NCBI GenBank assembly: GCA_029262735.1
Contig: JAJCYY010000013.1
Coordinates: 4,108 to 68,107 of the forward strand
Direction: 5' to 3'
Origin: Chloroflexota bacterium
Lineage (GTDB): Bacteria > Chloroflexota > Dehalococcoidia > Lucifugimonadales > Lucifugimonadaceae
Length of the DNA: 64,000 nt
The position numbers were made by a program, and so were the translations under genes. This document shows, piece after piece, positions 1,854-64,000 of the stretch. Every line of letters begins with the position of its first letter. Positions within the stretch are counted from its first letter, which is position 1. The notes beneath the pieces were generated by a model. The model did no database searches and was not told the DNA's origin. It was given only the letters and a program-made list of their open reading frames with translations.

Positions 1854-2636
1854 ATGACCCAGGCCCAGAACCAGAAGCCGGCTATCAAAGGCAAGTTCAC
1901 AACTGCCACCATCACACGCAGAGTGGATATTGCCCACGACCTCTGGAAGATCTGGCTCAAACCCGAGCAATCGTTCGCTTTCAAGCCTGGACAGTACTGC
2001 ACCATCGGCGCTGCAGGAATAGAGCGACCGTACTCCATCGTGTCGTCACCGGACGAGCCGGAGATCGAACTCTTCGTCGAACTTGTCCCGCTCCCAGACG
2101 GCAACCTGACGCCTGTGCTGCACAAGATGGGCGTGGGTGAGACGGTGACGCTCAGGCCACGCCCCAAAGGCATTTTTGTCATTCAGCCGAAGTACAAGAA
2201 CCATGTGCTCGTGGGGACCGTCACCGGAACCGTGCCATATGTGAGCATGCTGCGAAAGTTCCTTGCCGACCCGGAATGGCCCGAAGACCAGGGAGTGCCG
2301 CGTTCGGAGCACCGCTTCTTTGTCCTGGAAGGCGCCAGTTATGTGCACGAACTCGGTTATGACGAGGAGTTGGGGAAACTGGCAGCAGAGCATGACTTCA
2401 TCGAGTTCATGCCGTCGATAAGCCGTCCCGACGAGGAGCCGAACAAGGGCTGGGATGGTGCGACAGGCCGAATCAACACACTTGTCGAAGACTACGTCGC
2501 AGAACGCGGTTTGAATCCGCTTGAGACCTGCGTCTACGCTTGCGGCCATCCGCAGATGATCGAGGACGTGCGGGCGCGGTTCGAGGGAACAGATTTCCAC
2601 TTCATCGAAGAGCGGTTCTGGAAAGACGACGACTAG
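1854..2636 (+). CDS. Ferredoxin-NADP+ reductase-like FAD/NAD(P)-binding oxidoreductase
   Basis: 260-aa ORF with the FAD-binding RPYSIVSSP (RxYS) motif, an NAD(P)-binding VGTVTGTVP segment and a C-terminal YACGHPQM motif typical of the FNR family. AGGAGG RBS at 1843-1848. Confidence 0.75.
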   Translation: MTQAQNQKPAIKGKFTTATITRRVDIAHDLWKIWLKPEQSFAFKPGQYCTIGAAGIERPYSIVSSPDEPEIELFVELVPLPDGNLTPVLHKMGVGETVTLRPRPKGIFVIQPKYKNHVLVGTVTGTVPYVSMLRKFLADPEWPEDQGVPRSEHRFFVLEGASYVHELGYDEELGKLAAEHDFIEFMPSISRPDEEPNKGWDGATGRINTLVEDYVAERGLNPLETCVYACGHPQMIEDVRARFEGTDFHFIEERFWKDDD

Positions 2637-6386: not shown

Positions 6387-6469
6387 CGGCCAGTTCGCTG
6401 CCCTCCCGCCAGTATGTTGACTATCTTCCACGGCCGCATCTATCATTCCGGCGTTGTCGAATAGACATT

Positions 6470-6650
6470 GCCTCCCGGGTGCCGCCCGCCTCAACAGAAG
6501 GGCGAGCGGTGAAAAGGGAAAGCGGTAAGAATCCGCTGCGGTAGCGCCACTGTGATCGGCGAGTCTGTCTGCACGAGCCACTGCTCCGGCTAACGGGAGC
6601 GGGAAGGCGCAGACAGGCGTTGGAGCCGAGAGCCAGGAGACCTGCCCGAG
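6470..6650 (+). promoter_or_regulatory. Cobalamin (B12) riboswitch aptamer
   Basis: Conserved core read directly: GGTGAAAAGGGAAAGCGGTAAGAATCCGCTGCGG...GCGCCACTGTGA, ...GAGCCACTG...GGGAAGGC, and B12-box AGCCAGGAGACCTGCC at 6631-6646. It sits upstream of a btuCFD-like operon. Confidence 0.85.
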
Positions 6651-6761
6651 AGGCTGAGTGACTGCTTCCCGCCAAGGGGGTGGCTCTCGACTGTGGGTCT
6701 CCGGGACGGTCAGTGGGTTGCACTGGTTAGCCGGTTTTAATACAGATTCACGGCAAGAGAC

Positions 6762-22255: not shown

Positions 22256-22300
22256 GGGGTGCGGAATCCACACACCTGTTAAGACACATGCTCCGAAGAG
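22256..22300 (-). repeat. Degenerate tRNA-Leu 3' fragment (oldest att remnant)
   Basis: A 19-nt core, CTGTTAAGACACATGCTCC, is identical to the tRNA-Leu at 42494..42579 and to the fragment at 26157. The flanking T-arm and acceptor parts are decayed. Confidence 0.65.
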
Positions 22301-26156: not shown

Positions 26157-26212
26157 TGGTGGGGAAGGTGGGATTCGAACCCACACGTCTGTTAAGACAC
26201 ATGCTCCTAAGG
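26157..26212 (-). repeat. tRNA-Leu 3' fragment (att remnant)
   Basis: TGGTGGGGAAGGTGGGATTCGAACCCACACGTCTGTTAAGACACATGCTCCTAAGG. This runs from the CCA end to the anticodon loop of tRNA-Leu, with a compensated T-stem variant. Confidence 0.85.
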
Positions 26213-30021: not shown

Positions 30022-30075
30022 TGGTGGGGAAGGTGGGATTCGAACCCACACGGATTGCTCCACATGCTCCTAAGG
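30022..30075 (-). repeat. tRNA-Leu 3' fragment (att remnant)
   Basis: TGGTGGGGAAGGTGGGATTCGAACCCACACGGATTGCTCCACATGCTCCTAAGG. The acceptor, T-arm and anticodon arm match tRNA-Leu; the variable arm differs. Confidence 0.85.
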
Positions 30076-42493: not shown

Positions 42494-42579
42494 TGGTGGG
42501 GAAGGGGGGATTCGAACCCCCACGTCTGTTAAGACACATGCTCCTAAGGCATGCGCGTCTGCCATTTCGCCACTTCCCC
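42494..42579 (-). tRNA. tRNA-Leu, anticodon UAG, type II (long variable arm), CCA encoded
   Basis: The reverse complement folds by eye. Acceptor GGGGAAG/CTTCCCC. Anticodon arm CATGC-CTTAGGA-GCATG. Variable arm TGTCTTAACAGACGT. T-arm GGGGG-TTCGAAT-CCCCC. Ends in ACCA. Confidence 0.9.
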
Positions 42580-59649: not shown

Positions 59650-60885
59650 CTAAACTCCTGCCGAACCGGTCGAGTTGATTGGGAACGTCGCGAAAACCCG
59701 CCATCCACCGTCGTCGGTCTGACCCGCCTCGAACTTGCCATTGAACATAGCGACCCGCTCTCGCATCCCGACCATGCCTCGCCCACCGCTCGTGCGACCG
59801 GAATTTCGGTCGTTTCCGGAGCCATCGTTCAGGACGGTAAGCGCGATCAGGTTTTCTGAATAAGAGATCTTTGCGACGGCATATGAGCCGGCAGCGTGCG
59901 TCATCACATTTGTAAGCGCTTCTTGCATCACCCGGTATGCCGACAGGTCGACGCTCGGTGCCAACGAGATCGGAGTTCCCGCCATCTCCATCTCGACGGC
60001 TTGACCAGCAGCTCGGACCTCCTCGATCAATGAGTTGACTCGGCTCATTGACGGCCTGCCTTCGAGCGCTTTGACGGAGTCTTGCATGTCTTCGGTGTCT
60101 TCCGGATCTTGCAGAATGCCAAGCATCCGATCGACATCTGAGAGAGCCTGTCGGCCTGTCGATTCAATCGATTTAAGTGTCTCGAACGCCTTATCAGGAG
60201 ACGCCGTGAAAATCTTTTGCGCTGCTCCTGCCTGGATCACAACGAGATTTAGTGTGTGCCCGACAACATCGTGGAGTTCGCGAGCAATGCGAGCTCGTTC
60301 AAATTGAGCCGCCTCTCGCCTGACGCGCACCTGCTCGTCCGAAAGTTCCGAGACCGTAAGTTCGGCGATCTCCAGTCTCGTTCGCCGAGAGCGAACAACG
60401 CTACCTGCGATCCACACACCTGCGAACAGAATGTTGATGACGATCGCGTTATCGGTCTCTTCATGTATGAAACCAAATACTGCAATGACGATAGCGAATA
60501 TGATCAAGCCACCGATCATCGACTGCCGGTCGTCGGTGGTGCTCGTAACCACATACAACCCGATTATGGTGGTCAGTTGTACGACCCATACGGTGTCGTA
60601 GTCGAGCGCCGCATGAGCGACGAACGCGGACCCAATAACCGTCAGTACAGCTAGCGGCGCGCGGCGTACGAAAACGAGAGGCAGGACCTGCGCCACTGCA
60701 AGAAACCCACCCAGCACACTTTCCTGCTTAAACCCGCTTTCTGGCGTCGGCTCTATCCGAAGATCAAGGGCTAAAAAGATGAGGAATACGATTGTCGCCA
60801 AACTCGGCGAAACGTACGGATTTCGCTGGTCTAACTTCCGATACCGATCCCAGGTTGTTTCGAGCCAATTCATATTGGGCACCAT
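59650..60885 (-). CDS. Sensor histidine kinase, HisKA_3 (NarX/LiaS/DesK type)
   Basis: 411 aa. N-terminal TM helices, H-box ARELHDVVGHTLN and an ATPase domain (NDGSG...GRGMVGMRERV). Confidence 0.9.
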   Translation of the reverse strand: MVPNMNWLETTWDRYRKLDQRNPYVSPSLATIVFLIFLALDLRIEPTPESGFKQESVLGGFLAVAQVLPLVFVRRAPLAVLTVIGSAFVAHAALDYDTVWVVQLTTIIGLYVVTSTTDDRQSMIGGLIIFAIVIAVFGFIHEETDNAIVINILFAGVWIAGSVVRSRRTRLEIAELTVSELSDEQVRVRREAAQFERARIARELHDVVGHTLNLVVIQAGAAQKIFTASPDKAFETLKSIESTGRQALSDVDRMLGILQDPEDTEDMQDSVKALEGRPSMSRVNSLIEEVRAAGQAVEMEMAGTPISLAPSVDLSAYRVMQEALTNVMTHAAGSYAVAKISYSENLIALTVLNDGSGNDRNSGRTSGGRGMVGMRERVAMFNGKFEAGQTDDGGWRVFATFPINSTGSAGV

Positions 60886-60967
60886 ACTCCAGAGGCAGTA
60901 GTCATGAAGCCACGAACACCTCTTCGGGTGTTAGTGGCTTCGTTGACCGGTTGAGTGTTGAACGGGT

Positions 60968-61570
60968 TCACTGGCTCCGAGCGATCATCGCTTTCTCAAA
61001 CGTGACGCTCACACTGCCAAGCCAGTTCAGCAGATGCAGCGAGACGAAGAACAGGAACACTCCTGGGACCAGGAACATCAGAGCTTCGCTTGCCGTGTCA
61101 ACTTGCCAATTACCAACTTCCCAATCAACCCATCGGTAGAAGATCCACAGTGTGGCTGTTGCGCCACTCACCGCCAGGGTCGTGACCGCGACCGTGAATG
61201 TCGCGATCCCGAGCGGGAACCTGGCAAGCAGGTACACGATGCCGGACCAGGTGGTTCTGTCGCTGAACAGTGCTTTGAGTTTTGCGATCCAGTTCCCTGT
61301 TGCCGGTGGCATCAATGGGACCTCGTCCATGTCCGCACCGAGCAACCCAACGGCAAGTTCTCGCTCAAACCGCATCATAGCCCTGGTTCCGATTGCGACC
61401 AGCATCAAGATTGGAATCCCCACTAAGGCGAGCGGCATTAGACCGGTTCCGAGAGACACCCCTGTAACGAGAAATGTGAAGTAGGCGATCCCGAGTGGGA
61501 GGCCTAAAAGCATGTAAACCGCCGTTGTCCACGTTTTTGGTTTTGCGACGACTGAGAAGAAGCTGCTCAT
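60968..61570 (-). CDS. Polytopic membrane 'sensor-domain' protein associated with the LiaS-type kinase
   Basis: 200 aa with two pairs of TM helices of similar sequence (internal duplication). Lies directly upstream of the kinase on the same strand. Confidence 0.55.
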   Translation of the reverse strand: MSSFFSVVAKPKTWTTAVYMLLGLPLGIAYFTFLVTGVSLGTGLMPLALVGIPILMLVAIGTRAMMRFERELAVGLLGADMDEVPLMPPATGNWIAKLKALFSDRTTWSGIVYLLARFPLGIATFTVAVTTLAVSGATATLWIFYRWVDWEVGNWQVDTASEALMFLVPGVFLFFVSLHLLNWLGSVSVTFEKAMIARSQ

Positions 61571-62081
61571 TGGAACGATCCTCGATTGGTTGATTCAATT
61601 CGATATGAACCAGCCTATTCAGGTCCGCGCCAAACAGCGTCTGTCGAGGGTGGGATCATTCCGTAAGCACTTTGACGTACATCGATCGACCCGTAAGTTA
61701 GACCGGGCAGCGTGCCTCATACTCAAATCAGGTCAAAGCTTCATTCACGATCGGTATGAATCGTTTGCGGACCCGGCTCACAGGAGTGCGACGTCGCTCA
61801 GATTTCACGTGCCTTGAGAGAGCGCAACAGTAGTACCAGTTGCTCTGTCTGTTTGTCGCTCATTCCAGCGATTGCGGGGCTTTTTCCAAGGACTCGAGCG
61901 TCGAGGTTTCGGCACTAATCGGCATTCCTGTGCAGCCTTGTGATCCCATAATAGCCACGTACAAGATAGGGAGTGTCAGGGATTGTCAGGGTTTGGTTGT
62001 ACAGTACGGTCATCCCACGGGCGTGTGAATACGAAAGCAATGGATTCCATACGGAATGCAACAGGACAAGGAGTAAGGCTG

Positions 62082-62339
62082 ATGCGATTTCTTATCGAGG
62101 AGACATTTAAAGCACCGCCAACGGCAGAAGTTCAAGCCCTCGTTCCAGCTGAGCAAGCGAGAGTCAAAGAACTGACAGAACAAGGGCTGATAGCCGCTGT
62201 GTACATAGCGGCTGATCAATCACGTGCGTGGGCGTTGTGGAATGTCGATTCTGAAGCTGCCTTAGAAGAAGCACACAATTCCCTGCCGCTCCATCCGCAT
62301 ATGAACAGCGAGATTACGGTGCTGGCTGAGGAGGCGTAA
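62082..62339 (+). CDS. Muconolactone delta-isomerase-like small protein
   Basis: The ATG at 62082, preceded by AAGGAG, gives 85 aa. MRFLIEETFK...RVKELTEQGLIAAVY...AWALWNVDSEAALEE fits the ferredoxin-like MIase family pattern as I recall it. Confidence 0.5.
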   Translation: MRFLIEETFKAPPTAEVQALVPAEQARVKELTEQGLIAAVYIAADQSRAWALWNVDSEAALEEAHNSLPLHPHMNSEITVLAEEA

Positions 62340-62375
62340 CCCCAAAGAGGATGACGGTGGTAGCCGAGTGTGAGC

Positions 62376-62425
62376 TGGTGACGCGCCGGGGGCTCGAACC
62401 CCGAACCTAGTGATTAAGAGTCACC
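62376..62425 (-). repeat. tRNA-Lys(CUU) 3' fragment (att remnant). No 5' half present
   Basis: Reverse complement GGTGACTCTTAATCACTAGGTTCGGGGTTCGAGCCCCCGGCGCGTCACCA. This gives an anticodon arm with CTT, a T-arm CGGGG-TTCGAGC-CCCCG, acceptor 3' strand and ACCA. No complementary GACGCGC or D-arm lies upstream. Confidence 0.7.
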
Positions 62426-62485
62426 TTGTCGAGCCATCTCAAAATGCGGCGAAAGGGACTTTTGTGAGCGGATACAATCGCACCT

Positions 62486-63166
62486 GTGCTAACTCGAATT
62501 CGCCGTTTCCTGCAGACGATCGATAGGCGACAACCGACGAGGTTGACCTGGATCGTAGTTTCGGTTGTCGCATTGCTGGGTGGCCTGTTTTGGATGGTTT
62601 ACCTACTCCCTCCCCCTTCGAGCTGGCCGGACAAAACGGTTGCCGAGCGATTTGCTTTAGTCGGTGCTCTCGTTTCCTTCTTTGGCTTGATCGCAGCGGT
62701 CGTCGCCCTGCTCTATGCGGTCGAGGAGGTGCGCCAGATTTTTCCGGGACAGGATCTTAAGGTCATTTCTGTGATGCAAGCGGACACCACAGAAAGAGAA
62801 GGTATGACGGCATTCGTCGAGGTCATGAACGACGCCTCAGGTTCAATCGTGAATGCACTAAGAATCGAACTCACGGTTCACATGCCAAGCGACAGTGCAA
62901 TCAAGTTGTCCGATTTCGACGGCATGTATAGCCAACCTGCGCAGCCCCGTCCCGGCAGATGGGAGTTCCAGGCACCAGACATCTGGGTATTTCAGTCTGA
63001 ATCGAGATTGTTCCCAGGTGCATCGATCGTTGGACCCGAACTTCACGTTCCCGGTGAATTTGAGATCGACACCATCGACCAAATCCGGTGGTCTGGTCAA
63101 TGGTGGACGGACCGACGCGGTCCAGAACCGTTCACGACCGGCAAAGCGGGAATTCGCACATCGTGA
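62486..63166 (+). CDS. Hypothetical membrane-anchored protein (island cargo)
   Basis: 226 aa. Two N-terminal TM helices and a soluble C-terminal domain. No motif recognised. Confidence 0.45.
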   Translation: MLTRIRRFLQTIDRRQPTRLTWIVVSVVALLGGLFWMVYLLPPPSSWPDKTVAERFALVGALVSFFGLIAAVVALLYAVEEVRQIFPGQDLKVISVMQADTTEREGMTAFVEVMNDASGSIVNALRIELTVHMPSDSAIKLSDFDGMYSQPAQPRPGRWEFQAPDIWVFQSESRLFPGASIVGPELHVPGEFEIDTIDQIRWSGQWWTDRRGPEPFTTGKAGIRTS

Positions 63167-63232
63167 GTGCGGTTATTTCGGCTTTGATGCTAGAGTAGAA
63201 ACCGACCGGCCAAGTCACAAAGGTGGCACCTC

Positions 63233-63946
63233 ATGGGTGGACCACGTAGGCCGGTGCCGCGCCGCCATTGTCCGCAGTGCGACCCGCCGGTTTCAGCCGG
63301 CACTCCCCCGCCCGAACTGACCGGAAAATCCTGCACTGCAACGCTCGGGAAAGACGGTCCAACGTGCAGCAGACCAGCCGTCCAGCTCGACAAGCACAAT
63401 CGCCCCATCTGCAACGCGAAGGTGTGGACCAACGTACGGTCGCATGAGACCGGCGCTCACAGCCAGGTCACCAGCGTTGCGGCTCTGGATTCCGAACCTG
63501 CAGCCGAACCGGTCCTCGCGTCAGTAGCTCAGGATCTACCGGACCAGGTCGACGCCGGCGATGTCACACATCCGGTATTCGCCGAGGAGCTGGTTCGGAC
63601 TGTGGTTCGGCAAGAGCTGACCAGCTTCGCAACCGACGTACTCGGGTTACCGGCGACGATGGCCCAGGGCGATGCTCCGGTAGCACTTCACCCTGTCGGA
63701 CTCTGCACCGATGGGCGCTGCCAGCCGTGCCGAGCGCAGCGCAGCGGCGAGCACAACCAAGCGAAAAAGCTGCTCGCCGGCGACATCGGAAAAGCGATCG
63801 AACACACCGGCCGAGATGCGGTTGCGGAGATGATCCGCAACGATGGTTCGGATGCCCTGGCAGACGTGCTTGAGGACTGGAAAGAGGCCGGCCGGCCGGA
63901 TCCTGCAGCTGCGCCAGCTGAGCAGGTCCAGGTGGTGGCGTCGTGA
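63233..63946 (+). CDS. Hypothetical protein with an N-terminal Cys-rich (possible zinc-ribbon) segment
   Basis: 237-aa ORF. HCPQC...C...C...C spacing in the first 60 aa. Start uncertain. A further ORF (GTG at 63943, VSDNPPEDQLPDED...) runs off the window. Confidence 0.35.
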   Translation: MGGPRRPVPRRHCPQCDPPVSAGTPPPELTGKSCTATLGKDGPTCSRPAVQLDKHNRPICNAKVWTNVRSHETGAHSQVTSVAALDSEPAAEPVLASVAQDLPDQVDAGDVTHPVFAEELVRTVVRQELTSFATDVLGLPATMAQGDAPVALHPVGLCTDGRCQPCRAQRSGEHNQAKKLLAGDIGKAIEHTGRDAVAEMIRNDGSDALADVLEDWKEAGRPDPAAAPAEQVQVVAS

Positions 63947-64000
63947 GCGACAACCCACCCGAGGACCAGCTGCCCGACGAGGACCAGCAGCAAGATCCGG

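What the first reader, a model, noticed from the sequence alone, without database searches (positions are those of the whole stretch)
62376..64000. tRNA-Lys(CUU) 3' fragment marks the distal edge of a second integrated element running off the window
The 50 nt at 62376..62425 are, on the minus strand, a complete anticodon arm (CTT), T-arm, acceptor 3' strand and CCA. No D-arm or 5' acceptor strand is present. By analogy with the tRNA-Leu array (same orientation logic), the intact tRNA-Lys should lie beyond 64000, and the genes from 62486 onward would be island cargo. Those genes are a membrane-anchored hypothetical, a Cys-rich hypothetical, and an acidic ORF starting at 63943. The core genome (MIase-like gene) ends 37 nt before the fragment.
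Basis: partly seen in the sequence, partly recalled or inferred. Interest (0 to 1): 0.5.

Follow-up and report, generated by a model that had tools for sequence, protein, structure and literature searches.

The report
tRNA-Lys fragment bordering an integrated element
A 49-base leftover of a lysine tRNA gene marks where a roughly 27-31 kb mobile element (virus- or plasmid-like) inserted into the chromosome; this is the ordinary scar of tRNA-targeted integration, although the element's family seems undescribed.

Summary
Window 62376..62424 (minus strand) is 49/49 identical to the 3' part, from the second base of the anticodon stem through CCA, of intact tRNA-Lys(CUU) genes in two Chloroflexota MAGs. 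It is not a full tRNA: ARAGORN makes no call and the Rfam tRNA model scores 20.4 bits against a threshold of 29.

- **Mobile-element genes.** The genes right of the fragment belong to a conserved family. A relative assembled as a 27,627-bp circle carries a full tRNA-Thr and a tyrosine integrase directly beside the homologue of the window's 63233 gene. Orientation matches the window and the spacing is similar (860 vs 808 nt).
- **The element continues off the window.** Three further element proteins lie on the source contig but outside the window.
- **Boundary.** A co-occurring variant is identical up to 62319, carries a decayed copy of the fragment, and loses all homology at 62430.

The fragment is therefore best read as attR. 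The integrase and intact tRNA-Lys are predicted about 27-31 kb further on.

This is a new member of a known kind and of low interest. The one side point is that the element family is absent from IMG/VR and GenBank phages.

The parts
62082..62339 (+). MIase-like gene (85 aa), the last chromosomal gene. It lies downstream of the tRNA-Lys target as read on the tRNA's own (minus) strand.
   Evidence: Pfam PF02426 3.7e-15. It is 100% identical to Logan contig L005 up to 62319.
62340..62375 (.). 36-nt spacer, the native 3' flank of the tRNA-Lys target.
   Evidence: It aligns with L005 but with 12/36 differences. It does not resemble the flanks of tRNA-Lys in L006 or L007.
62376..62424 (-). Displaced 3' portion of tRNA-Lys(CUU), running from the second base of the anticodon stem through CCA. 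This is the core of the attR junction.
   Evidence: 49/49 identity to intact tRNA-Lys in L006/L007. It is unique in the window. It is not a full tRNA.
62425..62430 (-). Non-tRNA hexamer GACAAG (minus strand), the element-side edge of the junction. It is the last sequence shared with the variant allele L005.
   Evidence: Alignments; homology to L005 ends at 62430.
62486..63166 (+). Accessory gene at the end of the element (226 aa). It has two predicted N-terminal membrane helices and a conserved WWTDR motif, and is not found in related elements.
   Evidence: ORF. About 25 distant full-length relatives among 1.84 billion representatives. No Pfam, PHROG or PADLOC family. GC 54.6% against 64.8% for the next gene. 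Terminator-like hairpin at 63154-63172.
63175..63232 (+). Conserved upstream region of the first conserved element gene. Nucleotide homology to related elements begins here.
   Evidence: blastn of the window tail against L001/L002/L003/L010 starts at about window 63175; 63188-63225 matches L010 1330-1366 at 84%.
63233..63946 (+). Cys-rich 237-aa protein (P0001), the first gene of the conserved element module.
   Evidence: Homologues at 45-60% identity in L001, L002, L003 and L010, always followed by the same genes.
63943..64000 (+). Start of the acidic protein, the second conserved element gene, which runs off the window.
   Evidence: The N-terminus VSDNPPEDQLPDEDQQQDP resembles the N-termini of the 296-aa (L001) and 300-aa (L002) proteins. 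In L001 the gene has the same 4-nt overlap with the preceding gene.

Best explanation
The 49 nt at 62376..62424 are the displaced 3' piece of a chromosomal tRNA-Lys(CUU) gene. They form the attR junction of an integrative element of roughly 27-31 kb.

Proposed mechanism:
- The element carried an attachment site (attP) that copies the tRNA from the anticodon stem to the CCA end.
- A tyrosine integrase recombined attP with the tRNA gene, probably with the crossover at the anticodon loop.
- The element's copy of the 3' half now completes the tRNA at the far end (attL).
- The junction at the MIase side (attR) holds the matching 49 nt, which lead into the tRNA gene's own downstream flank.

The element occupies everything right of 62430. 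It starts with an accessory membrane-protein gene, then the conserved module beginning at 63233, and it runs off the window.

Prediction: the integrase gene and then the intact tRNA-Lys(CUU), both on the minus strand, lie about 27-31 kb beyond the fragment, at roughly window-equivalent 89-94 kb.

Shown: the fragment's identity, the mobile nature and synteny of the genes, the int-tRNA-gene arrangement in a circular relative, and the homology break at the fragment.
Inferred: the integrase type in this genome, the far junction, the crossover position, and whether the element is still active.
For: 1. The fragment is 49/49 identical to real tRNA-Lys(CUU) genes and is not a tRNA itself.

2. The geometry fits an attR. 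The fragment's 3' end faces the chromosomal gene and its 5' end faces the foreign genes. The tRNA-Leu array in the same window is laid out the same way.

3. The gene at 63233 (P0001) and the ORF at 63943 are the first two genes of a module conserved in L001/L009, L002 and L010. The module continues with a 59-aa gene, a RadC/ParB-like protein of about 1100 aa (518 aa with RadC only in L002), and then a run of genes, including a 351-353-aa protein, conserved in L001/L009, L002 and L010.

4. L010 and L012/L013 are two circularly permuted assemblies of 27,754 and 27,748 bp. Their coordinates imply an exact 127-nt terminal overlap of the k127 contig, hence a 27,627-bp circle. In that circle the P0001 homologue is followed, 860 nt upstream, by a full tRNA-Thr(CGT) scoring 67.6 bits, and then by a 113-aa gene and a 385-aa tyrosine integrase (PF00589; phrog_1 1.3e-32). 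The tRNA has the same orientation relative to the P0001-type gene as the window's fragment, and a similar distance (808 nt).

5. Proteins P0131, P0150 and P0151 are orthologues of genes about 9 kb further along the module. They sit on the same 154,418-bp source contig but not in the window.

6. Contig L005 is identical to the window for 1,597 nt, has a decayed copy of the fragment, and shares nothing beyond 62430.

7. In both MAGs that carry this tRNA-Lys intact, a tyrosine integrase lies directly 3' of it, so this tRNA is a used target.

8. The general principle is set out in the Islander paper (PMC4383910). A regenerated tDNA and its displaced fragment mark island ends. Of 3919 islands, 3760 have a 3' fragment and 2083 have an anticodon-centred attP.
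Against: - The intact tRNA-Lys and the integrase of this particular island were never seen.
- A profile of the two MAG integrases found no protein from the source contig among the 120 listed hits. This is weak evidence: 425 proteins passed the threshold, and the relative's integrase is unrelated to that profile.
- One relative (L001/L009) ends in a large serine recombinase rather than a tyrosine integrase, so the integration module varies within the family.
- The gene next to the fragment (62486-63166) is absent from all relatives and has a different GC content. Nucleotide homology to relatives starts only at about 63175.
- The tRNA-Leu islands in the same window have no integrase among the ORFs tested, so stranded fragments do occur in this genome.
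- No true empty site (intact tRNA-Lys next to the MIase gene) was found.
Confidence: 0.68

Rival explanations
1. Stranded relic. The fragment is a genuine old attachment-site scar, but the island is no longer a bounded, excisable unit. Its far end, integrase or intact tRNA partner has been lost or rearranged, as seems to be the case for the tRNA-Leu islands in the same window.
For: The tRNA-Leu array has three fragments and no PF00589 integrase among the ORFs tested. A diverged lineage (L005) keeps a decayed copy of this same fragment next to unrelated DNA, so such scars do persist here. No integrase from the source contig was recovered.
Against: The fragment is pristine (49/49), whereas the L005 copy has 10 changes. 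The element genes seen are full length and collinear with relatives over at least 9 kb. This points to a recent, intact insertion.
Confidence: 0.17
2. Two different elements. The fragment and the unique gene at 62486-63166 are the remains of an older tRNA-Lys island. The conserved module starting near 63175 would then belong to a separate element that arrived by another route, for example a serine recombinase as in L001/L009.
For: Homology to relatives begins only at about 63175. The 62486-63166 gene is unique, has lower GC and its own terminator-like hairpin. L009 carries a 496-aa large serine recombinase.
Against: In the circular relative the tRNA-type site sits at the same side, orientation and distance from the P0001 homologue. 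Accessory genes next to attachment sites are common in integrated elements (general knowledge).
Confidence: 0.1
3. Assembly artefact. The join between the MIase flank and the element is a chimera made at a repeated tRNA sequence in a metagenome-assembled genome.
For: The source is a draft contig. The same sample (SRR15505512) yields a contig, L005, with a different continuation after the MIase gene.
Against: The window's version of the spacer and fragment differs from L005's at 22 positions before the break. The window therefore did not simply switch paths from the L005 sequence. A 49-nt repeat is also exactly what a real junction contains.
Confidence: 0.04
4. An unusual or degenerate full-length tRNA gene, or a tRNA pseudogene, rather than an attachment scar.
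For: The Rfam model can be forced over 62379..62450. There is faint 5'-half resemblance (ATGG, CAAG, a 5/7-paired acceptor).
Against: The score of 20.4 bits is below the 29-bit threshold, there is no D arm and the acceptor is mispaired. ARAGORN makes no call. The variant L005 shares nothing upstream of GACAAG.
Confidence: 0.01

Closest known systems
tRNA-gene-integrated genomic islands and prophages as catalogued by Islander (tyrosine integrase, 3' tDNA fragment, anticodon-centred 'A' attP class)
   Same: A 3' tDNA fragment in the correct orientation borders foreign DNA. The identity block runs from the anticodon stem to the 3' end. A relative of the element has a tyrosine integrase next to a tRNA-type attP (PMC4383910).
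   Different: The regenerated tRNA and the island's own integrase were not observable here. The element's genes match no catalogued phage or IMG/VR contig.
Integrative elements whose attP carries a long tRNA-derived segment (recalled from general knowledge, not tested here: pSAM2 with tRNA-Pro, SLP1 with tRNA-Tyr, mycobacteriophage L5 with tRNA-Gly)
   Same: There is a long identity block between attP and the 3' part of a tRNA. The circular relative carries a whole tRNA-Thr beside its integrase.
   Different: There is no sequence relationship to those elements. The host appears to be a marine Chloroflexota-like bacterium, judged only from tRNA identity.
P1-type DdrB and ParB-like/RadC proteins of phages and conjugative plasmids
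   Same: The roughly 1100-aa protein of the relatives' module matches DdrB-like phage proteins at 34-37% identity over about 330-370 aa. It also matches 2841 plasmid records.
   Different: Only the central domain matches, and the gene itself lies beyond the window.

Membership tests
tDNA-integrated genomic island (Islander criteria) | A fragment of a tRNA gene, identical or near-identical to the 3' part of the cognate tRNA | tested here: met
   49/49 identity to tRNA-Lys(CUU) of L006/L007. The host's own tRNA-Lys was not seen.
tDNA-integrated genomic island (Islander criteria) | An intact cognate tRNA gene on the same replicon, in the same orientation, at the other end of the island | not testable with these tools
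   The source contig (154,418 bp, NCBI) is not retrievable. The window holds no tRNA-Lys.
tDNA-integrated genomic island (Islander criteria) | A tyrosine integrase gene inside the island, usually beside the intact tRNA | tested here: inconclusive
   There is none in the window and none from the source contig in the top 120 hits of an integrase profile search. The circular relative L013 has one next to its tRNA.
tDNA-integrated genomic island (Islander criteria) | Fragment orientation consistent with the island lying on its 5' side | tested here: met
   The CCA end faces the MIase gene and the foreign genes lie on the 5' side. The tRNA-Leu array follows the same layout.
tDNA-integrated genomic island (Islander criteria) | The island is absent from close relatives (an empty or alternative site) | tested here: inconclusive
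   L005 lacks the element and loses homology at 62430, but it has a decayed fragment rather than an intact tRNA. L004 has different synteny.
Anticodon-centred ('A') attP sublocation class | [quoted passage not shown] | tested here: met
   Identity covers linear positions 27-75. The class definition is from PMC4383910. The crossover point itself is inferred.
Functional tRNA gene (Rfam RF00005) | Full cloverleaf scoring at or above the gathering threshold | tested here: not met
   20.4 bits against 29. ARAGORN makes no call.
Tailed-phage (Caudoviricetes) prophage | Recognisable terminase, portal and HK97-fold capsid genes | tested here: inconclusive
   Relatives give only weak PHROG hits, such as a tail-fibre-like or Ig-like domain. 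The 353-aa conserved protein has no PHROG, PDB-sequence or GenBank-phage match. The fold search of the 204-aa protein is not significant. IMG/VR has no relatives.

The most novel reading that the evidence does not exclude
The island may belong to an undescribed family of roughly 27-31 kb temperate elements of marine or sediment bacteria, probably Chloroflexota.

- The family can exist as a free circle.
- It swaps its integration module between members: tyrosine integrase with a full tRNA-Thr, tyrosine-type with a tRNA-Lys 3' half, or a large serine recombinase.
- Its highly conserved 351-353-aa protein and neighbours could be a virion module with no detectable similarity to known capsid, portal or terminase families.

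The pristine fragment, set against the decayed copy in a co-occurring variant, would then mean the element is currently active in that population.
Probability: 0.3. Interest if true: 0.5.

Novelty: new member of a known kind. Interest (0 to 1): 0.25.

Why it matters
For annotating this genome, the fragment fixes the left boundary of a horizontally acquired region at 62430/62431. It also predicts where to find the other boundary, the integrase and the functional tRNA-Lys(CUU).

Biologically it is one more example of the commonest way islands enter bacterial chromosomes, so it changes no concept.

The modest added value lies in the element. The family is seen integrated here and as a free 27.6-kb circle in Loki's Castle sediment. 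It has no relatives in IMG/VR or among GenBank phages, so it is a candidate new mobile-element or virus lineage for a poorly studied phylum. The co-occurring variant with a decayed scar also offers a natural test of recent activity.

Tried and rejected
**Retrieving the source contig beyond 64000**
- Exact-protein look-ups for four window proteins failed.
- The single genome-contig scan with a 45-mer of the fragment returned only two Chloroflexota MAGs, not the source.
- Both metagenome scans found nothing: the junction-specific 22-mer GACAAGGTGACTCTTAATCACT and the 45-mer.
- The viral-contig scans with the same patterns also found nothing.

**Fingerprinting the source contig by its length (154,418) in homology tables**
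- This worked for the element gene P0131.
- It did not work for an integrase when a profile of the two MAG integrases was used.

**Classifying the element as a phage**
- PHROGs gave only weak or partial hits.
- PADLOC gave none.
- IMG/VR has no relatives of the P0001 family or the 353-aa family.
- GenBank phages do not match the 353-aa protein.
- A PDB sequence profile search found nothing.
- The AlphaFold model of the 204-aa family has pLDDT 65.6 and gave no significant fold match.
- The P0001 model was unusable at pLDDT 41.

**Rejected readings**
- A full-length or unusual tRNA.
- A chance match.
- A second copy inside the window.

**Empty site**
- L004 has the MIase gene in a different neighbourhood with no fragment, so it is uninformative.

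Full report
**1. Observation**

Read on the minus strand, window 62425..62376 is GGTGA CTCTTAA TCACT AGGTT CGGGG TTCGAGC CCCCG GCGCGTC A CCA. That is an anticodon arm with CTT, a variable loop, a T arm, a 3' acceptor strand, a discriminator and CCA.

A 45-mer from it, scanned against one genome per species of GTDB, hit only two contigs, both Chloroflexota MAGs. In both, the match lies inside an intact 75-nt tRNA-Lys(CUU).

BLAST of that tRNA against the window gives 49/49 identity, tRNA positions 27-75 to window 62424..62376.

The sequence is unique in the window even with three mismatches allowed, with none expected by chance.

It is not a whole tRNA. ARAGORN reports only tRNA-Leu at 42494-42579. 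Rfam's tRNA model passes threshold only there. Forced over 62379..62450, it scores 20.4 bits against a threshold of 29, with two mispaired acceptor positions and no D arm.

The MIase-like gene (PF02426) ends at 62339, 36 nt before the fragment.

**2. Geometry**

The fragment's CCA end points to the chromosomal MIase gene and its 5' end points to the downstream ORFs. In a tRNA-targeted integration, the displaced 3' fragment lies next to the tRNA's original downstream flank, and the island lies on the fragment's 5' side. The regenerated tRNA sits at the island's other end (principle as stated in PMC4383910).

The tRNA-Leu array in the same window obeys this layout. The intact gene is at 42494-42579(-), with 3' fragments at 30022-30075, 26157-26212 and 22276-22294.

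**3. What lies to the right**

- **62486-63166.** This ORF encodes a 226-aa protein with two N-terminal hydrophobic helices. It has no Pfam, PHROG or PADLOC family. It does have about 25 distant, full-length relatives among 1.84 billion representatives, sharing a WWTDR motif, so it is a real but rare gene. Its GC content is 54.6%, and a terminator-like hairpin sits at its end.
- **63233-63946 (P0001).** This gene has 64.8% GC and conserved cysteines. It has homologues at 54-59% identity (P0002-P0004) and at about 45-49% identity in L010.
- **Conserved neighbours.** In every contig long enough to show it, the homologue is followed by an acidic protein of about 300 aa. That protein's N-terminus matches the window's ORF at 63943. 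Next come a 59-aa gene, a RadC/ParB-like protein (about 1100 aa in L001/L009 and L010, 518 aa with RadC only in L002), and then further conserved genes.
- **Start of homology.** Nucleotide similarity to these contigs starts at about 63175, just after the 226-aa gene.
- **Mobile-element marker.** The central domain of the large protein resembles P1-type DdrB and phage virion proteins, and it occurs on 2841 plasmid records.

**4. The element continues on the source contig**

A search with a gene that lies 9.4 kb further along the module in L001 returned P0131, at 76% identity.

P0131 and its neighbours P0150 and P0151 also occur on Logan contig L008, and all three are recorded on the 154,418-bp contig. 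L008 does not match the window.

The island is therefore at least about 11 kb long, if it is collinear with its relatives.

**5. The key comparison**

Three assemblies of a Loki's Castle sediment sample carry a relative of the element. Two of the contigs are 27,754 and 27,748 bp and are circular permutations of each other. Mapping L010 and L014 onto L013 places position 1 of the k127 contig at L013 4918 and its last base at L013 4792. That is exactly a 127-nt terminal overlap, the signature of a 27,627-bp circle. This assumes the unseen first 2.4 kb of that record is collinear.

In this circle the layout is as follows:
- The P0001 homologue lies at L013 389-1102(-).
- A full tRNA-Thr(CGT) lies 860 nt upstream, at 1963-2037(+), scoring 67.6 bits in Rfam.
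- A 113-aa gene follows.
- A 385-aa tyrosine integrase follows (PF00589; phrog_1 1.3e-32).
- Small genes and a primase/helicase-like pair follow.

The tRNA's 5' end faces the P0001 homologue and its 3' end faces the integrase. If such a circle recombines through its tRNA sequence with a chromosomal tRNA, the product has two ends:
- The P0001-type gene lies next to the displaced tRNA copy and the tRNA's downstream flank.
- The integrase lies next to the regenerated tRNA.

The first end is what the window shows, with the same orientation and a similar distance (808 nt). This is the strongest support for reading the fragment as the attR of this element. It predicts the integrase and intact tRNA-Lys about 27-31 kb further on.

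Another relative (L001/L009, 31.5 kb) ends in a 496-aa large serine recombinase instead. The integration module is therefore exchangeable within the family, which tempers the prediction.

**6. Relatives of the host locus**

Logan contig L005 comes from the same sample as L008. Its similarity to the window changes along its length:

| Window interval | Comparison with L005 |
|---|---|
| 60723-62319 (1,597 nt) | no differences |
| last 20 nt of the MIase gene | 4 differences |
| 36-nt spacer | 12 differences |
| 49-nt fragment | 10 differences |
| beyond 62430 | no similarity; a methyltransferase-like gene follows |

The last shared bases are the non-tRNA hexamer GACAAG.

So a diverged lineage carries a decayed copy of the same scar with the same junction, followed by unrelated DNA. 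That lineage reached L005 either by real homologous recombination or through a k-mer chimera in the Logan assembly.

This places the boundary of variable DNA at 62430/62431 and shows the site has a history of occupation. It is not a true empty site.

The pristine state of the window's copy is best explained by a recent integration whose junction is dictated by the element's attP. That explanation is inference.

L004, a more distant relative, has the MIase gene in a different neighbourhood.

In both MAGs with the intact tRNA-Lys, a tyrosine integrase lies immediately 3' of it. The two integrases are 42% identical to each other. This tRNA is thus a recurrent target.

**7. What could not be done**

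The source contig is not retrievable. The metagenome and viral scans for the fragment or its junction found nothing. An integrase profile search did not surface a source-contig protein, but that query turned out to be unrelated to the family's integrase. The far junction therefore remains a prediction.

**8. Nature of the element**

It has a tyrosine integrase, a replication module and a DdrB/ParB/RadC protein. It also has a block of conserved genes of unknown function, including a 351-353-aa protein that is 69-74% identical across members.

None of these proteins matches a terminase, portal or capsid family. IMG/VR holds no relatives. A model of the 204-aa protein is a beta-sandwich with only non-significant similarity to phage tail or spike domains. 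Whether the element is a virus or a plasmid-like integrative element is open.

**9. Verdict**

The feature is a textbook att scar of the anticodon-centred class. It is a new member of a known kind and of low general interest. The side note is that the integrated element belongs to an apparently uncatalogued family.

Noticed in passing
window 22276-42579: The tRNA-Leu(UAG) array is real. The intact gene is at 42494-42579(-). 3' fragments lie at 30022-30052 plus 30061-30075, at 26157-26212 (56 nt, 96%) and at 22276-22294. The large ORFs between them are a KAP NTPase, an AAA_16/TPR protein, an MFS transporter, an SPFH protein, and a ParB_N plus radical-SAM pair. None of those tested is a PF00589 integrase, so these look like fixed, defence-island-like remnants.
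   Followed up: partly
window 6460-6663 (+): Cobalamin riboswitch, 110 bits, full length.
   Followed up: no
window 62320-62430 vs L005 1598-1707: Identity to a contig from the same sample falls abruptly from 100% over 1,597 nt to about 75-80%, starting 20 nt before the MIase stop codon. This is either a homologous-recombination breakpoint that imported the island with its flank, or a k-mer chimera in the Logan assembly.
   Followed up: partly
L013 1-20300, L010, L014 (Loki's Castle sediment contigs): A 27,627-bp circular element carries a full-length tRNA-Thr(CGT) beside a tyrosine integrase. It also has a primase/helicase-like pair, a PAPS-reductase-like gene, a small resolvase and a DdrB/ParB/RadC giant protein. 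No relatives exist in IMG/VR or GenBank phages, so it is a possible undescribed virus-like or plasmid-like family.
   Followed up: partly
L009 19568-20615 (L001 contig, record end): A relative of the same element family carries a 496-aa large serine recombinase and a Prim-Pol gene where the Loki's Castle relative has a tyrosine integrase. Integration modules are therefore swapped within the family.
   Followed up: no
L006 2213-3031 and L007 4897-6291: Both Chloroflexota MAGs with the identical tRNA-Lys(CUU) have a tyrosine integrase gene immediately 3' of it on the opposite strand. The two integrases are 42% identical to each other. This tRNA is a recurrent integration hotspot.
   Followed up: partly
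L013 1134-1182 and 1592-1640: A 49-nt direct repeat (90% identical) lies between the tRNA-type attP and the P0001 homologue. The copy nearest the gene (L013 1134-1182) adjoins and slightly overlaps the stretch conserved with window 63188-63225. It is a candidate regulatory or integrase arm-type site. The window has only one copy.
   Followed up: no
window 62486-63166: This singleton accessory gene encodes a two-helix membrane protein with an invariant W..WWTDR motif. Only about 25 distant relatives exist among 1.84 billion representatives. It has its own terminator-like hairpin at 63154-63172. Its function is unknown.
   Followed up: partly
window 62425-62450 (-): The 26 nt upstream of the fragment show faint resemblance to a tRNA 5' half (G.CGC, ATGG, GA.CAAG). 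This may be a decayed remnant of a once-complete tRNA copy in the element's attP, as in the Loki's Castle relative, or it may be chance.
   Followed up: no
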